From a virus (taxonomy: Duplodnaviria > Caudoviricetes): a stretch of 64,000 nt of DNA. Position numbers and translations under genes: made by a program. Location: IMG/VR virus record IMGVR_UViG_3300036833_000307, positions 1 through 64,000 of that record; one strand, 5' to 3'. Shown here piece by piece: positions 21,670-62,338 of the stretch; position 1 is the first letter of the stretch; every line of letters starts with the position of its first letter. The notes beneath the pieces are model-generated. The model worked only from the letters and a program-made list of their open reading frames with translations. It was not told where the DNA came from and ran no database searches.

Positions 21670-22401
21670 TTAGCGACGGCGGCGCAACCGAGTGATCCCG
21701 AGGCCCAGGAGGCCGACGCCGAGCACGGCGAGCGTCGCCGGCTCGGGAACCGGGATCATAGTGCACGTATTGTCGGCATTGAGCGTGCAGACGCCTGATA
21801 CGCGCGGCTGCTTGAACTTTTCGAAGCCGTATGGACCACTCGTCCCAGTGGCCTGAGTTACCTGGATATCGGTTATGACTTCGCCCGCGCTCGCTTCGAT
21901 GGTGACGAAGTTCTGCCCCTTCGCCAACACGTCGGAAAAGTTGTTGCCCATGTTATCAGTAACGTAGATATTGCTGGTGCCGATGCCGTTCTGCTCATTA
22001 AGGATGGCGTCGGTCCAGCCGAAACCCGGGCCGGGTTTCATTTCCATCGAGGTCAGCAGGTTAGTCAGGCCGCCGGCCGCGGTCGGGCATTTGGCCGCGG
22101 TGTCGGCGCAGATCAGCGAGCCCTGGCCGACGCCGTCCGCCTGGAACAGCTGTCCGGTGCCAGCACCACCGAGCGAGCCGGCCCCTTTGGCGAAGGTGGT
22201 ATCGAACAGCACCGGCGACATGGTCTTGTTGGTGTCGCCGTTGTGACTTAGGCCCGGCAGCAGGTTGGCGGCCTCGAACTGGATGTTCTGTTCGCTCGGC
22301 TGCGGCACCTGCCCGTCGATGAACACGATGGTGGCGCGAGCTTGCGTAGCGATGGCGGCGAGCATTGCCGCCATCACCCCCGCCACGATCAGGCTACGCA
22401 T
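21670..22401 (-). CDS. PEP-CTERM sorting-domain protein
   Basis: Signal peptide plus C-terminal VPEPATLAVLGVGLLGLGITRLRRRR. Confidence 0.9.
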   Translation of the reverse strand: MRSLIVAGVMAAMLAAIATQARATIVFIDGQVPQPSEQNIQFEAANLLPGLSHNGDTNKTMSPVLFDTTFAKGAGSLGGAGTGQLFQADGVGQGSLICADTAAKCPTAAGGLTNLLTSMEMKPGPGFGWTDAILNEQNGIGTSNIYVTDNMGNNFSDVLAKGQNFVTIEASAGEVITDIQVTQATGTSGPYGFEKFKQPRVSGVCTLNADNTCTMIPVPEPATLAVLGVGLLGLGITRLRRRR

Positions 22402-23126
22402 TAGCTGCGCCTCCGCAGCCGCCGCACTGCGCCAAGGCCGATTAGCCCAACGCCCATAATAGCGAGCGAGGTCGGCTCCGGCACCGCGGTAACGCTGGAA
22501 ACGATGGTCTGCCCGCGGCTCAACAGCGTGCCGCCAGCGTTCAAGCTGAACACGGCGTTTTCAGTCAAGCTGAACGGCGAGCTGGCCGCAAACGCTACCG
22601 GCACATTGCCGGTCGAGAAGCTGTCAGTGGCGCCGATGGCGGTATGCGAGAAGGTATCGAGCAGCGTGCCCGGAGTGACCCCTGGAGCAGTGGCGCCCTG
22701 CCCGTTGGCCGTGTCGCCAAACCACGTCAGGGTAGCGGTCGAGCCATTGCTGTTCTGGTAGGTGCCCGAGCCAGACAATGTTGCCGTCGTAACCGGTGCG
22801 GTAAAGCCTATATCGCTCACCGTGACAGTGCCGCTGATCGCGCCGGCATTGTTGTTGATCACCGACAGGCTGCTGGTGTTGAGGATGTTGGCGGCTCCGC
22901 CAGCAACGCCGAGCTGGCTGGTCTGGATGCTGCCGTTAACCGTCACCCCGCCGAGCGTGAGGTTGTTGAGTTGCAGCGTGCCGGTGGCCGGGTTGGTATC
23001 GCAAACTGCGTTGTCGGAGCAAGTGAAGATCACGCCATTTATATCGGCGGCGATCATCAGCGTGGCGCTGGCCGGAACGGCATAAGTCAGCCCGAGCAGC
23101 GCCGTTGTGGTGAGCAGTCGCTTCAT
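22401..23126 (-). CDS. PEP-CTERM sorting-domain protein
   Basis: MKRLLTTTALLGL signal peptide plus VPEPTSLAIMGVGLIGLGAVRRLRRRS. Confidence 0.9.
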   Translation of the reverse strand: MKRLLTTTALLGLTYAVPASATLMIAADINGVIFTCSDNAVCDTNPATGTLQLNNLTLGGVTVNGSIQTSQLGVAGGAANILNTSSLSVINNNAGAISGTVTVSDIGFTAPVTTATLSGSGTYQNSNGSTATLTWFGDTANGQGATAPGVTPGTLLDTFSHTAIGATDSFSTGNVPVAFAASSPFSLTENAVFSLNAGGTLLSRGQTIVSSVTAVPEPTSLAIMGVGLIGLGAVRRLRRRS

Positions 23127-23268
23127 TGGGTTCTCCCTTTTCCAGAGGCCCTGGGTGATATAGCCGTAGCCTCCAGTGATGAATTTAGCCGAGAACCCGG
23201 CATGCATGTTGTAAGAAGTTCAGAGCAGCTGGGGTTGCAATCCGTTTACACCTAAGTTAGCCTCAGGG

Positions 23269-25907: not shown

Positions 25908-26762
25908 ATGCTGCTCACACGCCCATCGACCAAGACCCGCGGTAACGGTGCGCCTATGCCTCCCGCGCTGCCGAAGCGCCGCGGCCGGCCACCCAAGGTT
26001 GCCATGGCATTGGAAGTACCTGCCGCACCGGTCAAGCGCCGCGGCCGGCCGCCCAAGATAATCCGCGGATTGGAAAAAATGCGGCCGGTGAAAGCGAAAA
26101 TTCCGCCGCTCTCGGAGGGTGAGATCACTGCGCTATTGAGCGGCAAGCCACCACAGAAAATCGCTATCACCGCACCCAACCTTACCACCGCCACGATCAC
26201 CGTCGTCGGGGTAACCCCGTACGTCCAGAACGCCTTTACCGAAAAGCAACGGCTGATAATGGAAGAAACCCAACGCCAAGGTCAGCAGGCGCGTGGCAAA
26301 AAGGTGCGCAAGCCAAAGGATTTCGACGCCATCTACCGCAATGCCCAGCATCGCTCCAAGGAAGACTGGATTGGCATTCCGGCCGCCGCCTTTCGCAACG
26401 CCATGATCGACGCCACTCGTCTCGTCGGTGTCACCATGCAGCATGCCAAGATGAGCATTTTTATCGAAGCCGACGGCTACGACGCCCAAGACATGCGGGG
26501 ACTGGTCAAGATCCAGGGCGAGCCGCGACCATACAAGGCCCCGGTGCGCAATTCGAGCGGTGTCGCGGACATCAGATGGCGTCCGATGTGGGAAAAGTGG
26601 AAGGCCACCGTTCGTGTGACCTGGGATGCCGATCAGTACAGCGCAACCGACATCATGAACTTGATGTTGCGAGCAGGTCTCCAGGTCGGCATCGGTGAAG
26701 GCAGACCCAACAGTCCCAAATCCAACGGCCAGGACTGGGGCCGCTTTCGGATTGCCCCCTGA
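25908..26762 (+). CDS. RAMP/Cas7-like RNA-binding protein (VIPR-type effector candidate) with N-terminal AT-hook-like repeats
   Basis: TITVVGVTPY first strand, GIPAAAFRNAMIDA, IRWRP, C-terminal Gly-rich loop AGLQVGIGEGRP...DWGRF; two KRRGRPPK repeats; sits upstream of the GGC-NN array. Confidence 0.75.
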   Translation: MLLTRPSTKTRGNGAPMPPALPKRRGRPPKVAMALEVPAAPVKRRGRPPKIIRGLEKMRPVKAKIPPLSEGEITALLSGKPPQKIAITAPNLTTATITVVGVTPYVQNAFTEKQRLIMEETQRQGQQARGKKVRKPKDFDAIYRNAQHRSKEDWIGIPAAAFRNAMIDATRLVGVTMQHAKMSIFIEADGYDAQDMRGLVKIQGEPRPYKAPVRNSSGVADIRWRPMWEKWKATVRVTWDADQYSATDIMNLMLRAGLQVGIGEGRPNSPKSNGQDWGRFRIAP

Positions 26763-27283
26763 TGGCGGCGACACGCCGCCAGATCCGGGCCGAATTGCTA
26801 GCGCTCAAAAGCGACGACGGCCTCATCTACCCGGAGCGGGTACATGGATGGGCTCAGCGCCACCCGAATTCCGCGCTGTACAATTCGCTGAACTGGGACG
26901 ATGCCACAGCCGCGCACGAGCACCGGCTTTGGCAAATCCGACAGTTGATCCAGGTGCACATCACGATCGTCAGCGGCACCCGTGAATTCGTTTCGTTGAC
27001 CATCGACCGGGCAAGCGGCGGTGGTTATCGCGAGGTCGCCGATGTCGTCGCCTCCGGCAACCTACGGCAGATCATGTTGGACGATGCGCTCGAAGATTTG
27101 GAACGGGTGCGTCGCAAATACCAACTCCTCGACGAATTGGCGGGGGTCTGGAAGGCGGCAGAAGCCGCTCGTCCGACACCGCGCAGGAAACGGGCACAAC
27201 CCGCCCGCAAGAAGTCGTCACCCCGCCGACGGCGCCCGCTACCGGGCGGCGGTGATGATGGCCAGCCATCTGCGCCGGCATGA
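26762..27283 (+). CDS. Partner protein translationally coupled to the RAMP-like gene
   Basis: TGATG stop/start overlap; HPNSALYNSLNWDDATAAHEHRLWQIRQLI. Confidence 0.8.
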   Translation: MAATRRQIRAELLALKSDDGLIYPERVHGWAQRHPNSALYNSLNWDDATAAHEHRLWQIRQLIQVHITIVSGTREFVSLTIDRASGGGYREVADVVASGNLRQIMLDDALEDLERVRRKYQLLDELAGVWKAAEAARPTPRRKRAQPARKKSSPRRRRPLPGGGDDGQPSAPA

Positions 27284-27301
27284 AGCAGATGGATCGGCCA
27301 T

Positions 27302-28543
27302 GGCAGGCTCGGCAAGGCGCGTCTCGACGTGGCAGCGCATGGCATGTCTCGGCCGGACAGGGCAGGCACGGCAGGTCCTGGCGCGACGCGGTCGGGCAGG
27401 ACATGGCATGGCCGGGCAGGCCAGGCGGGGCGGGGCTCGACGCGGCTAGGCACCGCAACGCTCGGCAAGGCGGGTCCCGGCAGGCATGGCGTGGCGTGTC
27501 CAGGCCCGCCCGGGCATGTCCCGGCAGGCCGGGCACGGCGAGGCCTGTCACGACGAGCCACGGCTCGGCATGGCAGGCGCGGATGGCGCGGATGGCAAGC
27601 CAAGACGGGGCCGGGCAGGCGTGGCACGGCACGGTCAGTCCGGGCTACGCGCGTCCAGGCTTGGCAGGCGTGGCATGACTGGGCTTGGCGTGGCAGGGCG
27701 GAGCCCGCCCCGGCAGGCATGGCATGACTGGGCTTGGCGCGTCTCGTCTGGGCTTGGCGCGGCAGGCATGGCTCGGCCCGTCTTGGCCCGGCACGGCGGG
27801 GCAGCGCAGGCGTGGCAGGTCCCGACGAGGCATGGCCGGGCCTGCCGCGGCTCGGCGGGGCATGGCGGGGCAGGCGCGTCATGGCATGGCCCGTCCCGGC
27901 CTGCCGAGGCGTGGCCCGCCACGGCATGGCAGGCGTGGCAAGCCTCGGCGAGGCAAGGCGTGGCAAGGCCCGGCAGGGCAGGCGCGGCAAGGCGGGGCGG
28001 GGCCGGTCCTGGCTCGACATGCCCCGGCTCGGCAGGCACTGGCTCGGCAATGGCTCACCGGCCGAGCATGGCAGGCGTGGCTTGGCCTGGCGGGGCGTGG
28101 CCTGTCACGGCCCGGCCCGTCTCGGCAGGCTTGGCGCGACAGGCCCAGGCATGGCTCAGCTCGGCTCGGCGGGGCAGGCGTAGCAAGTCTCGGCTGGGCA
28201 AGACGTGGCAAGGCGAGACGAGCCTGGGCAGGCACGGCACGGCGAGCCTTGGCTTGGCTAGGCGTGGCCCGCCAGGGCATGGCAGGCATGGCGAGGCTAG
28301 CCTCGGCAAGGCGCGGCCCGGCGCGGCGTGGCAGGCCAGACGCGGCAAGGCGGGGCTCGGAGCGGCGCGGCGTGGCCAAGCGCGGCAGGCGCGGCAGGCT
28401 CGGCAACGGTTCACCGGCCGAGCCCACCCCGCGGCAGGCATGGCACGGCCTGGCCCGGCCCGACGAGGCACGGCGTGGCGAGACTAGGCAGGCGCGGCCA
28501 GGCATGGCTTGGCAAGGCTGGGCGCGGCAGGCAAGGAGTGGCA
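27302..28543 (+). repeat. Non-coding array of GGC-NN pentamers in about 23-25 units delimited by GGCA (putative guide-RNA array)
   Basis: Strict 5-nt period (GGC, sometimes GTC/GAC/GCC/AGC/CGC, plus 2 variable nt), mostly 7-12 pentamers per unit, phase reset by GGCA; all overlapping ORFs are low-complexity artefacts. Confidence 0.9.
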
Positions 28544-28551
28544 GACCCGCA

Positions 28552-34826: not shown

Positions 34827-35055
34827 TTGCGGCCGGTGAACCGTCGCCGCAAAGCCAGCCAAGCCTGCCGCGCCCAACCCGGCCCTGCCTGGCCGCGCCA
34901 TGTCCTGCCTGGCCTGCCGCCCCTGGCCCGGCCTAGCCCTGCCTGGCTGCGTCTCGCCATGCCGTGCCAAGTCCAGCCCTGCCTCGCCCGACCAAGCCAC
35001 GCCTGCCATGACCCGCCGTGCCTAGCCTGCCAGGGCCTGCCGCGCCTTGTCCCAG
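34827..35055 (-). ncRNA. Stand-alone GGC-NN mini-array (solo guide locus 2, about 3 units)
   Basis: Pentamer period on the minus strand; TTGACG(35081-86)-N18-TACGAT(35057-62) promoter; ends in a hairpin with the GACGGTTCACCG loop. Confidence 0.85.
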
Positions 35056-37942: not shown

Positions 37943-38039
37943 GACCCCGCAGCCGGCAAGCACCGAACCCGCGGGGTCGCCGTGCCTGCCCTGGCTTGCC
38001 GGGCCATGCCTCGCCGTGACACGCCAGGCCAGGCCTGCC
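37943..38039 (-). ncRNA. Stand-alone GGC-NN mini-array (solo guide 3)
   Basis: ggca + 9 pentamers + ggca ggcac, then a hairpin; TTGATC(38073-78)-N17-TACCTT(38050-55) promoter. Confidence 0.85.
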
Positions 38040-46752: not shown

Positions 46753-46850
46753 GGCTCGACGCGGCATGGCGCGACTTGGCCAGTCCCGGCTCGGCTTGGC
46801 AGGCACGGAGAAGCAGGACCCAGAAGCACCATGCCGCTTCCGGGTCCTGC
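46753..46850 (+). ncRNA. Stand-alone GGC-NN mini-array (solo guide 4)
   Basis: 9 pentamers + ggca ggcac + hairpin; TTGCAT(46715-20)-N16-TAGACT(46737-42) promoter. Confidence 0.85.
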
Positions 46851-46938: not shown

Positions 46939-47760
46939 ATGTCTGATATCGTAAGGATGTTATCGAACCCGCTGGCAAAATCCGCATCCCAAACCGATTT
47001 CTTTCTCCTTACATTGGCGGAATGTGCAAAATTCGGCGTGCCGCCGCAGGCGCTTGCGCTGCTGCGCGATGTGCATAGCATGTTGGGATATTCCAAACCG
47101 CTCGGCGAAAAACAGATCAGCGCCCTGGCTGGGCCGTTGGTGGCGTGGCGCACCGATCCCCGGCAGCCGCATTTCGAGCGCGTTGTCGATCTCGAACGGC
47201 TGGCCTTTCACCAGCGCGCGCTGATCGCCTTTGGCGGCGGCAAACCTGGCGAAATGGTGGGCCGTGCCGAGATCGTATACGCGATGGGAAATCTGCTGCA
47301 CGGGACCTCGCCGCCGGAATACTACGAAGTATTCCAGTGGGCCTCCGTCGATACGCTCGCGGAGATCGAGGGAGACAGCAAGGCGAAAATCCTGGCCGAC
47401 CGTGAAAAGGACGGCTGGACAGCCGTCGCCGATGCGGAAGTAACCCAGCCCGGTGGGCGGCTCTACGCCACCTACCAGGAAATCTGCACGTCGATCCGCC
47501 GCGAGGCAATCGCCGGACTGGAGCGGAACCCGGCGGGGCATCCACGCAACATACTGCGGCCAATGGCCGCTCTGGCCATCGCCAACCATGCCCGGATCAA
47601 ACAGGAACTCCTCGCCGAGGGGCGTCCCGAAGTGGTGGAGACACTCGACCGCACGATCGAACAGATCCGCGGCATGTTTCCTGGTCTTGGCTCGTTGGAC
47701 GATGAGCTCAAGCGGCGCAACCAGGCCGCTCTCAACGAGGTCCTGGAAGAACTCCTGTGA
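46939..47760 (+). CDS. Hypothetical protein (273 aa)
   Basis: Preceded by the repeated leader; contains a near-match to solo guide 4. Confidence 0.75.
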   Translation: MSDIVRMLSNPLAKSASQTDFFLLTLAECAKFGVPPQALALLRDVHSMLGYSKPLGEKQISALAGPLVAWRTDPRQPHFERVVDLERLAFHQRALIAFGGGKPGEMVGRAEIVYAMGNLLHGTSPPEYYEVFQWASVDTLAEIEGDSKAKILADREKDGWTAVADAEVTQPGGRLYATYQEICTSIRREAIAGLERNPAGHPRNILRPMAALAIANHARIKQELLAEGRPEVVETLDRTIEQIRGMFPGLGSLDDELKRRNQAALNEVLEELL

Positions 47761-51094: not shown

Positions 51095-51215
51095 GGCGCG
51101 GCTCGTCTAAGCCCGACATGGCAGGCTCGGCAAGACAAGGCACGGCGGGGCTCGGCATGGCCGGGCTTGGCAGGCGCGGCCTATGGACCCGGAGGAAACC
51201 TGCCTCCTCCGGGTC
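51095..51215 (+). ncRNA. Stand-alone GGC-NN mini-array (solo guide locus 5, 2 units)
   Basis: 5 + 9 pentamers separated by ggca, then a hairpin; TTGAGT(51064-69)-N16-TAAGCT(51086-91) promoter. Confidence 0.85.
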
Positions 51216-53167: not shown

Positions 53168-55235
53168 CGCCGAACGGCTGGCCCAGGCGGTGCTGCTGTT
53201 CCATCGCGGCGGCCCGTGGACGGCCTTAGACAGCGGCCACTGGCTGGCGCTGACCGGCAAGGTGGACTGCACCACCAAGGTGCTCTGCGACCTTGCCCGC
53301 CGCATCCTCGAGACCGCCGAGCGTGAGGTAGTGATCCAGCTACCGTTGGAGCCATTGAGCGATGCGGACATCCGGCAGGCCGCGCTAGGCCCCCTGGAAT
53401 GGAAGCAGCGCTGATGCCGCGCTGGTCTGAGGTCGTCACCATCACCCTGCCGGACGGCACACAGGCTCAAGCCATCGTCTGTGGCAGCGGCAAGCGTCCG
53501 CGTACGCCGCGCTGCCGCTGCGGCCGGACGTCGAGCATCCAGTGCGACTTTCCGCTGCTGGATGGCAAGACCTGCGACCAACACCTGTGTCGCTCCTGCG
53601 CCGTCCCGGTCGGGCGCAACCGCGACTACTGCCCCGAGCATCCACGGTGAGTACCACCCGCCGCACCCCTCGTTACGAGGACGTCCAGCCGGTCAAGGAC
53701 CTCGTCACCAACGAGGAGATGTACGAGGCGATGGTCTACATGGACCAGAGCCCGCACGACTATGCCGAGGCGGTCGCTGACGCTGAGTACGCCGCGTACA
53801 AAATCCGCATGGCCGAGGCAGTCGGCATCCTCGTGTCGGGCGAACGGAACGCCGCCCGCCAACAAGCTGATGCCCGCACCTCGCAAGCCTATGCCAACGC
53901 CGTTGAGGACAACCGCCGCGCGCAGATGCAAGCCGAGATGATGAAAGCCAGGCGCGCCGCTGCACAGTTGAAAATCGAGGTATGGCGAACCCTTCGCGCC
54001 GACCAACGCGCCCGGGATGTGTCCGAACCAGGAAGTAGATGATGACGCGTGCGAAAAGGGCTCTCCAGCCTAAGCCGAAGAGCCCCGTGCCGCGTCCGGC
54101 GTTGCCACGTCCTGCCAAGCCTCGTCTCGCCGCAGCATGTCATGCCTGGCCGTGTGTGGCATAGGCACATCACGATATGCCACATTTTTTATCCTTGGCA
54201 ACGGTTCGCTGATGCCCTGCCGCGACTGTAATCACTGGAACCGGGTTCCGGTCTGCGCTGCCCTCGAGCGCTTTACCCCCGGCTGGTGTGAAGTCCAGCA
54301 CCGTGCGGTATTCCCGCACTATCACTGCCCCAGGTGGGTACAACGCGAGGTCACCCACGCCGAGGTCGGCCTCACCCGCGACGAAGTCGCCTGGGCGCGC
54401 CAGCATCGTGACGACCCATCGGTTCGCGCCCTCAACTTCCTGTTCCGCCGCATCCAGTTCCAGCCGCAGAACCCCGCGATCCGCGCGGAATTCACCACGA
54501 CGCTGGAAATCTGGCGCAGCAAGCGACGTATCGCATTCGGTCAACCGGAGGAAATGCCATGAGCGGGACCGGCTTCCCCGAAGGTTTCGCTATCGTTCAT
54601 GCCGGACAACTCTACCGACCGATTGGCACCCGGGAATTCGTCAACACCAAGGGTCAGCGGGTGATGTGCATCGACTGGCGTTCGGTCTGTCCGGAGTGCG
54701 GTGAGGCTTTCACCCTCACCACCGGCCGGCGCTGGCAGCGCCCGCACGCACGCCGTTGTCCGGGTTGTCGAGCGCCGGGCCAAGCGGTGCAAGATGCTCG
54801 TATCGGGCAGCGATAGACCCTATATAATAAGCCGCAACGATCTGCCTCCCGGCCCGAGCATCGGTGACCGGCAGTGAACCCGGCTGCTCCCGGGGGAAAG
54901 GCATATCAATGTCAGAACCAGTATCCCGCATCCAGATCCTCGCTCCTGAGCGGCTGGATGCCTTCTTCGCACACTATCATTCCGGCGCGGACTACGGGCT
55001 GTTTCGCCAGGGTCTCGCCCGGCTGCTGGAGCTCTGCTCCCGCTATTGCTCAAATCTTCCTGCTGGCGCGTACCGCGTCGCCAGCCTCATGCCTGACCAC
55101 CGCGATTTCCAATCAATCGACTGGTGCATTCAGGAAAATCCGGAGCCATCCGGATTCCACGGCAAGCACATCATCAATGGTGGCTTAAACCACCACAGCG
55201 ATGTTTCCACTCCAACGTGGAGCATCAACACTTAG
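53154..55235 (+). CDS. Small hypothetical genes (53154-53414, 53414-53650, 53647-54042, 54212-54562, 54559-54816, 54909-55235)
   Basis: Coupled ORFs, several Cys-rich. Confidence 0.6.
54058..54151 (-). ncRNA. Stand-alone GGC-NN mini-array (solo guide 6)
   Basis: 13 pentamers on the minus strand then hairpin + T4; TTGCCA(54196-201)-N18-TATCGT(54172-77). Confidence 0.8.
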
Positions 55236-62237: not shown

Positions 62238-62338
62238 GGCAGGCCGGGCTCGGCATGACGTGGCACGGTGCGGCGCGGCTGGGCTCGACATGGCATGGCC
62301 CGGCAGGCACGGGACCCTCCGGCTTCGGCCGGAGGGTC
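62238..62338 (+). ncRNA. Stand-alone GGC-NN mini-array (solo guide 7)
   Basis: ggca + 12 pentamers + ggca ggcac + GC hairpin with TTCG loop, antisense in the gap between two structural genes. Confidence 0.85.

What the first reader, a model, noticed from the sequence alone, without database searches (positions are those of the whole stretch)
27419..28280. The variable dinucleotides spell protein motifs: a gapped code that skips the wobble base
Rule: take each unit's NN string, reverse-complement it and read each dinucleotide as codon positions 1-2. Unit 27419-27478 gives GG CC TT GA TT GT TA GC GA CC CC TG = G-P-[FL]-[DE]-[FL]-V-Y-A-[DE]-P-P-[WC], i.e. GPFDLVYADPPW, the catalytic motif of MT-A70-type adenine methyltransferases (no such gene in this window). 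Unit 27873-27927 gives [IM]VGTS[RS]GG[IM][IM]A, a GxSxG nucleophile elbow (alpha/beta hydrolase or patatin). Unit 27809-27868 gives PIPEASRISGLT (excisionase-like HTH), 27932-27976 LGLTLSELT (XRE-like), 27527-27571 MEVSVRSVR (HTH), 28231-28280 [IM]LGTYKNSVV (GcrA-like), 27667-27711 GGPLTKHIT. Inference: guides pair with the sense strand as NN-x-NN-x, making targeting insensitive to third-position synonymous escape, aimed at other mobile elements or host genes. Caveat: two-base codes are ambiguous and I chose favourable residues; the short HTH readings could be chance.
Basis: partly seen in the sequence, partly recalled or inferred. Interest (0 to 1): 0.95.

Follow-up and report, generated by a model that had tools for sequence, protein, structure and literature searches.

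The report
VIPR guide-RNA array in a phage
The repeat is the guide-RNA array of a phage VIPR system, a CRISPR-like RNA-guided silencing system first described in 2026. Its variable dinucleotides do read out codon positions 1-2 of target genes, including a DNA methyltransferase and a CBASS phospholipase.

Summary
Window 27302-28545 is a staggered array of about 25 guides. Each guide is GGCA followed by 7-12 GGCNN pentamers. The array lies directly after a RAMP/Cas7-like gene (25908-26762) and a partner gene (26762-27283) in a 102.6-kb phage. [quoted passage not shown]

- **Unit 27419-27478 (GPFDLVYADPPW).** A related phage keeps this guide with one Leu-compatible change. All 3 exact hits of their shared pattern in 596 Gb of genomes lie in frame in MT-A70 genes. 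One sits on a prophage- or satellite-like contig.
- **Unit 27873-27927 ([IM]VGTS[SR]GGIIA).** The related phage also keeps this guide. Of 45 exact IMG/VR hits, 44 are in frame in patatin genes, and three of four examined sit beside a CBASS cyclase. A shuffled control gave 1 hit.

The first guide matches a rival phage's vap gene at 21/22, against 17/22 for the phage's own vap. The five short HTH-type readings have no support. This is a new member of a known kind. The defence-gene targets may be new.

The parts
25908..26762 (+). vipr gene: RAMP/Cas7-like protein that would coat the guide RNA, one protomer per pentamer. The N-terminus carries two KRRGRPPK AT-hook-like repeats.
   Evidence: Homologs occur in 87 of 120 loci that were found only by the array DNA pattern. 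The family profile hits PDB 36pp_D 'SUSP1 Vipr protein' at E=2.7e-5, with the thumb Arg and G-loop acid and Arg aligned. The AF2 model has pLDDT 78.6, and its top-ranked Foldseek hits are Csm3/Cas7 RAMPs.
26762..27283 (+). vap-like accessory gene (173 aa) with a conserved LRxIMLxDAL motif at 27062-27094.
   Evidence: Homologs lie next to vipr in 49 of 120 loci. The family has 78 members and no Pfam domain. The AF2 model has pLDDT 83.9 but gives only weak winged-helix-like fold matches.
27302..28545 (+). Staggered vrRNA array: about 25 guides, each GGCA followed by 7-12 GGCNN pentamers.
   Evidence: The register shifts by one base at each GGCAGGC, as in the 'staggered arrays' of the VIPR preprint, fig. 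S18. No Rfam family matches.
27306..27360 (+). Guide 1, decoding to LR[DE][IM][IM]LT[DE]A[FL][DE]. Predicted target is the vap gene of rival VIPR phages.
   Evidence: It matches 21/22 in frame in the vap gene of L121 (LREIMLNDALE). It matches only 17/22 in the phage's own vap, which is still the unique best hit in the genome.
27419..27478 (+). Guide decoding to GPFDLVYADPPW. Predicted target is motif IV of an MT-A70 adenine methyltransferase gene.
   Evidence: Its ortholog L123:10797-10851 is identical at 21/22, and the one change is TT to CT, both compatible with Leu. The shared pattern has 3 exact hits in genome contigs, all in frame in Pfam MT-A70 genes. The window guide matches them at 23/24.
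27873..27927 (+). Guide decoding to [IM]VGTS[SR]GGIIA. Predicted target is the nucleophile elbow of a patatin-like phospholipase (CapV-type CBASS effector).
   Evidence: Its ortholog L123:10856-10910 matches at 18/20. Of 45 IMG/VR pattern hits, 44 are in-frame patatin genes. The window guide matches 19 of those loci at 21/22, and the L123 guide matches one at 22/22. A SMODS/DncV-like cyclase lies next door in 3 of 4 loci examined. A shuffled control gave 1 hit.
27809..27868 (+). Guide decoding to P[IM]P[DE]A[SR]R[IM]SGLT. Target unknown.
   Evidence: The decoding is verified. A synonym-tolerant pattern found no hit in metagenome contigs, and the exact pattern with up to 3 mismatches found none in MAG G002.
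27527..27571 (+). Guide decoding to [IM][DE]VSV[SR]SVR. Target unknown.
   Evidence: Decoding verified. There is no notable match in the phage genome or the local loci.
27667..27711 (+). Guide decoding to GGPLT[KN][HQ][IM]T. Target unknown.
27932..27976 (+). Guide decoding to LG[FL]T[FL]S[DE][FL]T. Target unknown.
28231..28280 (+). Guide decoding to [IM]LGT[Y*][KN][KN]SVV. Target unknown.
28041..28067 (+). Conserved hairpin inside the array (GGCTCGGCAATGGCTCACCGGCCGAGC).
   Evidence: The fold is not distinguishable from shuffles in its local context.
28397..28424 (+). Second copy of the conserved hairpin (loop AACGGTTCACCG), followed by CACCCCGC. This is a possible tail-like element.
   Evidence: The same hairpin and ACCCCGC sequence end the array of the related phage L123. 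MFE is -33 kcal/mol with z = -2.7.
34865..35003 (-). Secondary small vrRNA array with units of 9 and 17 pentamers.
46753..46802 (+). Solo vrRNA with the tail GGCAGGCACGG and a strong hairpin. It decodes to KDGWKAIAD.
   Evidence: Its unique best match in the genome is 16/18, in frame at 47407-47432 in the gene just downstream. That exceeds all 100 shuffles.
62242..62306 (+). Solo vrRNA with a promoter-like TTGACG..TAAAAT upstream, then 12 pentamers, GGCAGGCACGG and a hairpin.
   Evidence: The hairpin has z = -3.6.

Best explanation
Window 25908-28545 is a VIPR (Viral Interference Programmable Repeat) locus of an uncultivated ~102.6-kb tailed phage. It consists of vipr (a RAMP/Cas7-like protein), a vap-like accessory gene and a staggered array of about 25 vrRNAs.

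Mechanism, taken from the 2026 preprints and inferred to apply here. The array is transcribed from the + strand. Vipr protomers polymerise along each guide, one per pentamer, and bury each GGC. The two variable bases are left exposed. These pair with two consecutive bases of the target DNA strand, and the next target base is flipped out. Five guide nucleotides therefore read three target nucleotides. In coding sequence the skipped base coincides with the wobble position, so synonymous changes at the third codon base are not read. Binding represses transcription.

Shown here by computation. At least three guides read real coding motifs:
- motif IV (GPFDLVYADPPW) of MT-A70 methyltransferase genes, one of them on a prophage- or satellite-like contig of an Acetobacteraceae MAG;
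- the GTS(T/S)GGIIA nucleophile elbow of patatin-like phospholipases, which are CBASS CapV-type effectors;
- the conserved LRxIMLxDAL segment of a rival phage's vap gene.

Inferred. The phage uses these guides to silence genes of competing mobile elements and possibly defence genes. Guides that resemble its own genes carry enough mismatches to spare them.
For: (1) System identity.
- The array pattern alone retrieves at least 120 IMG/VR loci with GC content from 0.42 to 0.73.
- 87 of them carry a homolog of 25908-26762 and 49 a homolog of 26762-27283.
- The family profile hits the solved SUSP1 Vipr protein (PDB 36pp_D) at E=2.7e-5. R209, E248 and R250 align to its R138, D177 and R179.
- The top-ranked fold matches of the AF2 model are Csm3/Cas7.
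- 710 guides parsed from 124 records have a modal length of 9-10 repeats.

(2) The code.
- The preprints report GGY/NN vrRNAs, the 1-nt skip rule, wobble alignment and staggered arrays.

(3) MT-A70 guide.
- The guide is conserved in the syntenic relative L123 at 21/22. The only change is TT to CT. No other guide but the patatin one is shared.
- There are 3 of 3 exact genome hits in frame in Pfam MT-A70 genes, with a Gly codon upstream that matches the window's extra GG.
- Three contigs of one MAG carry GPFDL[VI]YADPPW, while the backwards control found 0.
- The L125 contig encodes an excisionase-type regulator, a primase/helicase, a methyltransferase and TerS.

(4) Patatin guide.
- 44 of 45 hits are in-frame patatin genes, against 1 hit for the shuffled control.
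- Match levels are 21/22 for the window guide and 22/22 for the L123 guide.
- CBASS cyclases are adjacent.

(5) Rival vap.
- The match is 21/22 in L121 against 17/22 to the phage's own vap.

(6) Recurrence.
- (D/N)PP(W/Y/F) decodings occur in 5 of 710 guides, against about 0.6 in shuffles.
Against: - No RNA or binding data exist for this phage. Per the preprint, staggered arrays were not among the architectures confirmed by sRNA-seq.
- No perfect target of any window guide was found. The full exact patterns of guides 27419, 27306 and 70162 gave 0 hits in the collections scanned.
- Scans of the phage genome and of about 1.1 Mb of VIPR-bearing fragments show no general excess of 1-nt-skip matches over shuffles or over 0-, 2- or 3-nt skips.
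- NN composition is only slightly closer to codon positions 1-2 than to uniform.
- The host is unknown, so it is not shown that the MT-A70 or capV genes coexist with this phage.
- The W178 equivalent of the SUSP1 G-loop is Gly here.
Confidence: 0.9

Rival explanations
1. The array is an RNA (or DNA) that wraps or titrates an oligomeric protein through its GGC triplets, as the trp leader does with TRAP. The NN dinucleotides are meaningless spacers, and the decoded motifs are chance plus favourable choice of residues.
For: The units look TRAP-like: 7-12 conserved triplets separated by 2-nt spacers. Solo units sit between promoter-like sites and strong hairpins in front of genes. Most guides have no identifiable target, and the local scans show no global excess over shuffles.
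Against: The associated protein is a RAMP homologous to a solved Vipr, not a TRAP-like ring. Two guides are conserved between phages whose other guides all differ, and the differences are compatible at the protein level. Exact pattern hits fall almost entirely in frame in one gene family each, against 1 hit for a shuffled control.
Confidence: 0.04
2. The guides act on mRNA rather than DNA. The vrRNP binds sense transcripts of the target genes in codon register and blocks translation or stability.
For: All three validated targets are complementary to the sense strand. The reverse-complement orientation fits the codon 1-2 composition better than the forward orientation, with log-likelihood -763.9 against -780.4. 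The cryo-EM preprint shows that VIPR can pair with ssRNA.
Against: The preprints report dsDNA binding, repression from either strand, and unstable or incomplete filaments on RNA targets. Three targets are too few to establish a strand bias.
Confidence: 0.05
3. The region is a protein-coding low-complexity gene, or overlapping genes, encoding GxAxx-type pentapeptide repeats.
For: Long ORFs cross the array in several frames on both strands, for example 27486-28487 (+) and 27025-28050 (-). A gene caller annotated the equivalent array in L123 as a 252-aa product.
Against: No single frame spans the array, and each GGCA shifts the register. In low-GC phages the same arrays are plainly intergenic, lying between terminators and ribosome-binding sites. 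Conservation follows the 5-nt unit, not codons.
Confidence: 0.01

Closest known systems
VIPR systems (Viral Interference Programmable Repeat), exemplified by Escherichia phage SUSP1 and a Pseudomonas fulva prophage (type II). Sources: bioRxiv 10.64898/2026.04.26.720920, 10.64898/2026.04.26.720927 and 10.64898/2026.10.15.759431.
   Same: It is phage-encoded. It has the vipr (RAMP), vap and vrRNA layout, with guides built of GGY/NN pentamers. Targets are read by the 1-nt skip rule, with the skip on codon wobble positions. Some guides are aimed at mobile elements and at rival VIPR genes. Solo vrRNAs lie elsewhere in the genome, and the self-match is lower than the non-self match.
   Different: The Vipr is only distantly related, with one 51-residue profile match at E=2.7e-5 and Gly in place of the G-loop Trp. 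The guides form one long staggered array of about 25 units separated only by GGCA, not ~100-nt vrRNAs each with a pseudoknot tail. The preprint mentions that architecture but did not confirm it by sRNA-seq. The predicted targets include catalytic motifs of an MT-A70 methyltransferase and a CBASS patatin effector. None of the three preprints' main texts contains the terms CBASS or patatin, and two were also checked for methyltransferase.
Class 1 CRISPR-Cas effector backbones (Cas7/Csm3 filaments of types I, III and VII)
   Same: It has the RAMP fold. One protomer binds per fixed number of guide nucleotides, and thumb insertions interrupt the guide-target pairing periodically. The top-ranked fold matches of the model are Csm3/Cas7.
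   Different: There is no CRISPR repeat-spacer array and no Pfam-recognisable cas gene among the neighbouring ORFs scanned. Pairing is 2 of every 5 guide bases to 2 of every 3 target bases, not 5 of 6. According to the preprints, the guides are genome-encoded and there is no adaptation module.
TRAP and the trp leader RNA of Bacillus (11 (G/U)AG triplets with 2-3-nt spacers). This comparison is from my own knowledge.
   Same: Both have about 10 conserved triplets spaced by two variable bases and are bound by a protein oligomer.
   Different: The protein family is different. Here the spacers carry the sequence information. The function is guiding, not attenuation.

Membership tests
VIPR system | Vipr protein: a minimal RAMP with an RRM core, a glycine-rich loop and a thumb | tested here: met
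   The profile hits PDB 36pp_D 'SUSP1 Vipr protein' at E=2.7e-5 across the thumb Arg and the G-loop (GIGEGRP against GVGDWRP). The AF2 model has pLDDT 78.6, and its top-ranked Foldseek PDB hits are Csm3/Cas7 at E about 5e-5. The Trp that stacks on G2 in SUSP1 is Gly here.
VIPR system | vrRNA made of tandem GGY/NN pentamers (9-16 repeats in the characterised clades), with conserved GGY and hypervariable NN | tested here: met
   There are about 25 units of 7-12 GGCNN pentamers. Across 124 records, 710 guides have a modal length of 9-10 repeats.
VIPR system | Repeat array genetically linked to vipr and a vap accessory gene | tested here: met
   Of 120 loci found by the array pattern alone, 87 carry the vipr homolog and 49 the second gene. 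L123 and L121 are syntenic.
VIPR system | Natural targets obey the 1-nt skip rule, with the skipped base on the codon wobble position | tested here: met
   Shown for three guides: MT-A70, patatin and a rival vap. It is not shown for the other roughly 30 guides. There was no global excess over shuffles in the small local databases.
VIPR system | Encoded mainly by phages or proviruses | tested here: met
   The genome is a 102,563-bp virus record with HNH, Gp157/Gam-like and long structural genes.
VIPR system | Conserved structured 3' tail capping each vrRNA | tested here: inconclusive
   Main-array guides are separated only by GGCA, which is the staggered type. Two conserved hairpins lie in the array, and the same hairpin ends the L123 array. 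Solo units end in GGCAGGCACGG plus a strong hairpin. No covariation analysis was done.
VIPR system | vap accessory protein predicted to interact with DNA | tested here: inconclusive
   There is no Pfam domain. The AF2 model has pLDDT 83.9 but gives only weak winged-helix-like matches at E of 1.5 or higher. The basic C-terminal tail is visible in the sequence.
VIPR system | vrRNAs expressed and processed, bound by Vipr, and repressing target transcription | not testable with these tools
This needs sRNA-seq, pull-down and reporter assays.
CRISPR-Cas (class 1) | Array of identical direct repeats separating contiguous spacers, with cas genes beyond a single RAMP | tested here: not met
   No repeat-spacer array is present. 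The only periodicity is the 5-nt unit. The neighbouring ORFs that were scanned have no Pfam cas domains.
TRAP-type triplet-repeat RNA | Spacers between the triplets carry no information, and the partner is a TRAP-like ring protein | tested here: not met
   The spacer strings match in-frame gene motifs and are conserved between phages. The partner is a RAMP.

The most novel reading that the evidence does not exclude
In this VIPR clade, some guides are anti-defence weapons rather than anti-competitor weapons. A guide kept in two diverged phages reads the catalytic GTSTGGIIA motif of CBASS CapV-type patatin effectors. Another reads motif IV of MT-A70 methyltransferases. By aiming at invariant catalytic motifs in codon register, one guide could silence a whole family of defence or epigenetic genes across hosts and mobile elements. 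No such target class turned up in text searches of the VIPR preprints.
Probability: 0.4. Interest if true: 0.75.

Novelty: new member of a known kind. Interest (0 to 1): 0.6.

Why it matters

This locus still adds three things:
- It is a large example, about 25 guides plus about 8 solo or secondary units, of the staggered array type. The preprint describes that type but did not confirm it experimentally.
- It comes from a distant Vipr clade with hundreds of metagenomic relatives.
- It yields concrete, testable target predictions.

Two conserved guides read catalytic motifs of an MT-A70 methyltransferase and a CBASS phospholipase effector. If real, phages would be using RNA-guided silencing against defence-related genes as well as against satellites and rival prophages. 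It would also show that guides can be aimed at invariant protein motifs to gain breadth.

Tried and rejected
- **Similarity and RNA families.** Megablast of 20-30 kb of the window against the phage and plasmid collections gave no match. Rfam gave no family.
- **Relatives of the vap gene.** A peptide-pattern search in viral contigs found none.
- **Exact full-length patterns, all 0 hits.** Guide 27419 in viral, genome and metagenome contigs. Guides 27306 and 70162 in viral contigs. The shared MT-A70 pattern in viral contigs.
- **Guide 27809.** A synonym-tolerant pattern found nothing in metagenome contigs.
- **Guides against the target-bearing MAG G002, with up to 3 mismatches.** Guides 27809 and 27365 and the patatin guide found nothing. 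Guide 27981 found one 3-mismatch hit, at the level of the control. The other guides therefore do not converge on that MAG.
- **Shuffle-controlled scans with skips of 0-3 nt.** In the phage genome the 1-nt skip sum was 410 against 404.9 ± 3.2, and 6 of 100 shuffles reached it. About 1 Mb and 1.15 Mb of VIPR-bearing fragments showed no general excess. These databases are too small or are the wrong ones.
- **Composition test.** The codon 1-2 model beats the 2-3 and 3-1 models but is barely better than uniform. It is not decisive.
- **TRAP-like spacer hypothesis.** This was my own first idea. I dropped it.
- **Vap fold.** No significant match.
- **Tool limits.** 'relatives' is not available for a virus record.
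- **Related record.** The L002 record (104.6 kb) has no vap homolog.
Full report
**1. What is there**

Window 27302-28545 is a 5-nt repeat with three conserved bases and two variable ones. The conserved triplet is mostly GGC, sometimes GTC, GAC, GCC, AGC or CGC. The motif GGCAGGC occurs 25 times and shifts the register by one base each time. It cuts the tract into units, mostly of 35-60 nt, that is 7-12 pentamers. No reading frame spans the tract, and Rfam has no match.

The whole genome is one 102,563-bp virus record at 63% GC. It carries HNH, Gp157/Gam-like and long structural genes.

No MT-A70-like DPPW gene exists anywhere in the genome.

Further short units lie elsewhere in the genome: + strand at 46753, 51124 and 62242, and - strand at 34865, 37986, 54102, 70157 and 91312. 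Several have a promoter-like site upstream. They end in GGCAGGCACGG followed by a strong hairpin.

**2. What it is**

The pattern GGCAGGC(NNGGC)5 alone retrieved at least 120 IMG/VR loci, with GC content from 0.42 to 0.73. In the low-GC phages the arrays are plainly intergenic.

- 87 of the 120 loci encode a homolog of window 25908-26762, and 49 a homolog of 26762-27283.
- The first family has more than 765 members and no Pfam domain.
- Its profile hits PDB 36pp_D, "SUSP1 Vipr protein", at E=2.7e-5. The aligned stretch covers the thumb Arg (R209 to R138) and the G-loop (E248 to D177, R250 to R179, but G249 to W178).
- The AF2 model has pLDDT 78.6, and its top-ranked Foldseek matches are Csm3/Cas7 RAMPs.

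That PDB name led to three 2026 preprints describing VIPR systems. They report the following:
- Vipr is a minimal RAMP, accompanied by a vap accessory gene.
- vrRNAs consist of 9-16 GGY/NN repeats.
- One protomer binds per repeat and buries the GGY.
- The NN bases pair with the target while every third target base is skipped (the "1-nt skip rule").
- Skipped bases fall on codon wobble positions, which blocks escape by synonymous mutation.
- Targets are satellites, prophages and rival VIPR systems.
- Solo vrRNAs exist.
- "Staggered arrays" exist whose vrRNAs overlap by 1 nt.

The locus here fits the staggered type. The preprint notes that only the ribozyme-interspersed and single-vrRNA architectures were confirmed by sRNA-seq.

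**3. Test of the specific readings**

*MT-A70 (unit 27419-27478).*
- The closest relative found is L123, a 104.6-kb JGI contig with syntenic Gp157, vipr, vap and array. Its Vap is 60% identical.
- L123 shares just two guides with the window. One is the DPPW guide, identical at 21 of 22 positions. The single change is TT to CT, both compatible with Leu.
- The shared 11-dinucleotide pattern has 3 exact hits in 596 Gb of genomes. I expect about 0.14 under uniform base composition.
- All three hits lie in frame at ...GPF[DE]LVYADPPW... in genes that score as Pfam MT-A70, with E-values of 3e-19 to 4e-30. A Gly codon upstream matches the window's extra GG, so the window guide matches at 23/24.
- One hit is on a 5.3-kb Acetobacteraceae-MAG contig that encodes an excisionase-type regulator, a primase/helicase, the methyltransferase and a small terminase. 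That gene set looks like a prophage or satellite.
- Among 301 genomes of that family, only this MAG has matches. It has three contigs, all reading GPFDL[VI]YADPPW, and the backwards control found 0.

*Patatin (unit 27873-27927).*
- The L123 ortholog matches at 18/20 and decodes to AGTSTGGIIA.
- The shared pattern has 45 IMG/VR hits. Of these, 44 are in frame in proteins with DGGGxRG...GTSTGGIIA. A shuffled-dinucleotide control gave 1 hit.
- The window guide reaches 21/22 in 19 loci. The L123 guide reaches 22/22 in one.
- The four loci examined all score as Pfam Patatin. Three have a SMODS/DncV-like cyclase next door, which makes them CBASS CapV-type effectors. One also lies beside a phage integrase.

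- Its unique best match in the genome is 17/22, in frame in the phage's own vap at the conserved LRxIMLxDAL motif.
- In the vap gene of L121 it reaches 21/22 in frame.
- This matches the preprint's pattern of "self-match lower than non-self".

*The other five readings.* No target was found. A tolerant pattern for 27809-27868 gave 0 hits in metagenome contigs, and its exact pattern with up to 3 mismatches gave none in MAG G002. These readings remain guesses.

**4. Limits**

- No window guide has a perfect target in the collections scanned.
- Global shuffle tests on the phage genome and on about 1 Mb of VIPR fragments show no excess for any skip length. Those databases are small and probably the wrong ones.
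- NN composition is only weakly like codon positions 1-2.
- Other guides do not converge on the MAG that holds the MT-A70 targets.
- The host, expression, processing and binding are all untested here.

**5. Verdict**

The mechanism is already known, so this is a new member of a known kind. It is a distant Vipr clade with a long staggered array.

The possibly new element is the target class. Conserved guides read catalytic motifs of an MT-A70 methyltransferase and a CBASS patatin effector. None of the three preprints' main texts contains the terms CBASS or patatin, and two were also checked for methyltransferase.

(D/N)PP(W/Y/F) decodings also recur in other arrays, in 5 of 710 guides against about 0.6 in shuffles.

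Noticed in passing
window 46753-46802 (+). Also genome 70157-70211 (-), outside the window at G000:C1.: Solo vrRNAs whose best 1-nt-skip match in the whole genome lies in frame in the adjacent own gene, but imperfectly. One matches 16/18 at 47407-47432 (KDGWKAIAD against the own KDGWTAVAD). The other matches 15/20 at codons 2-11 of gene 68944-70092 (-). Several of the mismatches are synonymous codon-family switches (Ser TCN/AGY, Leu TTR/CTN). This suggests guides aimed at rival alleles of the neighbouring gene.
   Followed up: partly
window 34865-35003 (-), 37986-38035 (-), 51124-51178 (+), 54102-54131 (-), 62242-62306 (+). Also genome 91312-91371 (-).: Further solo or secondary vrRNA units are scattered through the genome. 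Most have a promoter-like site upstream and end in a GGCAGGCACGG tail followed by a GC-rich hairpin.
   Followed up: partly
window 25908-26060: The N-terminus of the Vipr homolog carries two KRRGRPPK AT-hook-like repeats. The database's gene call for the window's own protein starts later and gives 268 aa.
   Followed up: no
window 21670-23207 (-): Two tandem genes have PEP-CTERM sorting signals (Pfam PF07589), which is unusual in a phage.
   Followed up: no
L105:2525-2604, L108:8663-8702 (-), L060:6171-6225 (-): Guides in other VIPR arrays decode to [VI]xT[KN]PP[WY], which resembles the NPPY/NPPW motif IV of DNA methyltransferases. Methyltransferase motifs may be a recurrent VIPR target.
   Followed up: partly
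L043, about 7223 (-), just downstream of the array: One array is followed directly by a tRNA-like T-arm sequence (GGGTTCGAATCCCGG).
   Followed up: no
G002 contigs C173, C541 and C1035 (L172-L174): One Acetobacteraceae MAG holds three different contigs with MT-A70 genes reading GPFDL[VI]YADPPW, preceded by a conserved Cys-rich N-terminal segment. These may be several related prophage or satellite copies, or strain heterogeneity in the bin.
   Followed up: partly
The VIPR preprint describes hammerhead-interspersed vrRNA arrays, so a link is conceivable. I did not examine it.
   Followed up: no
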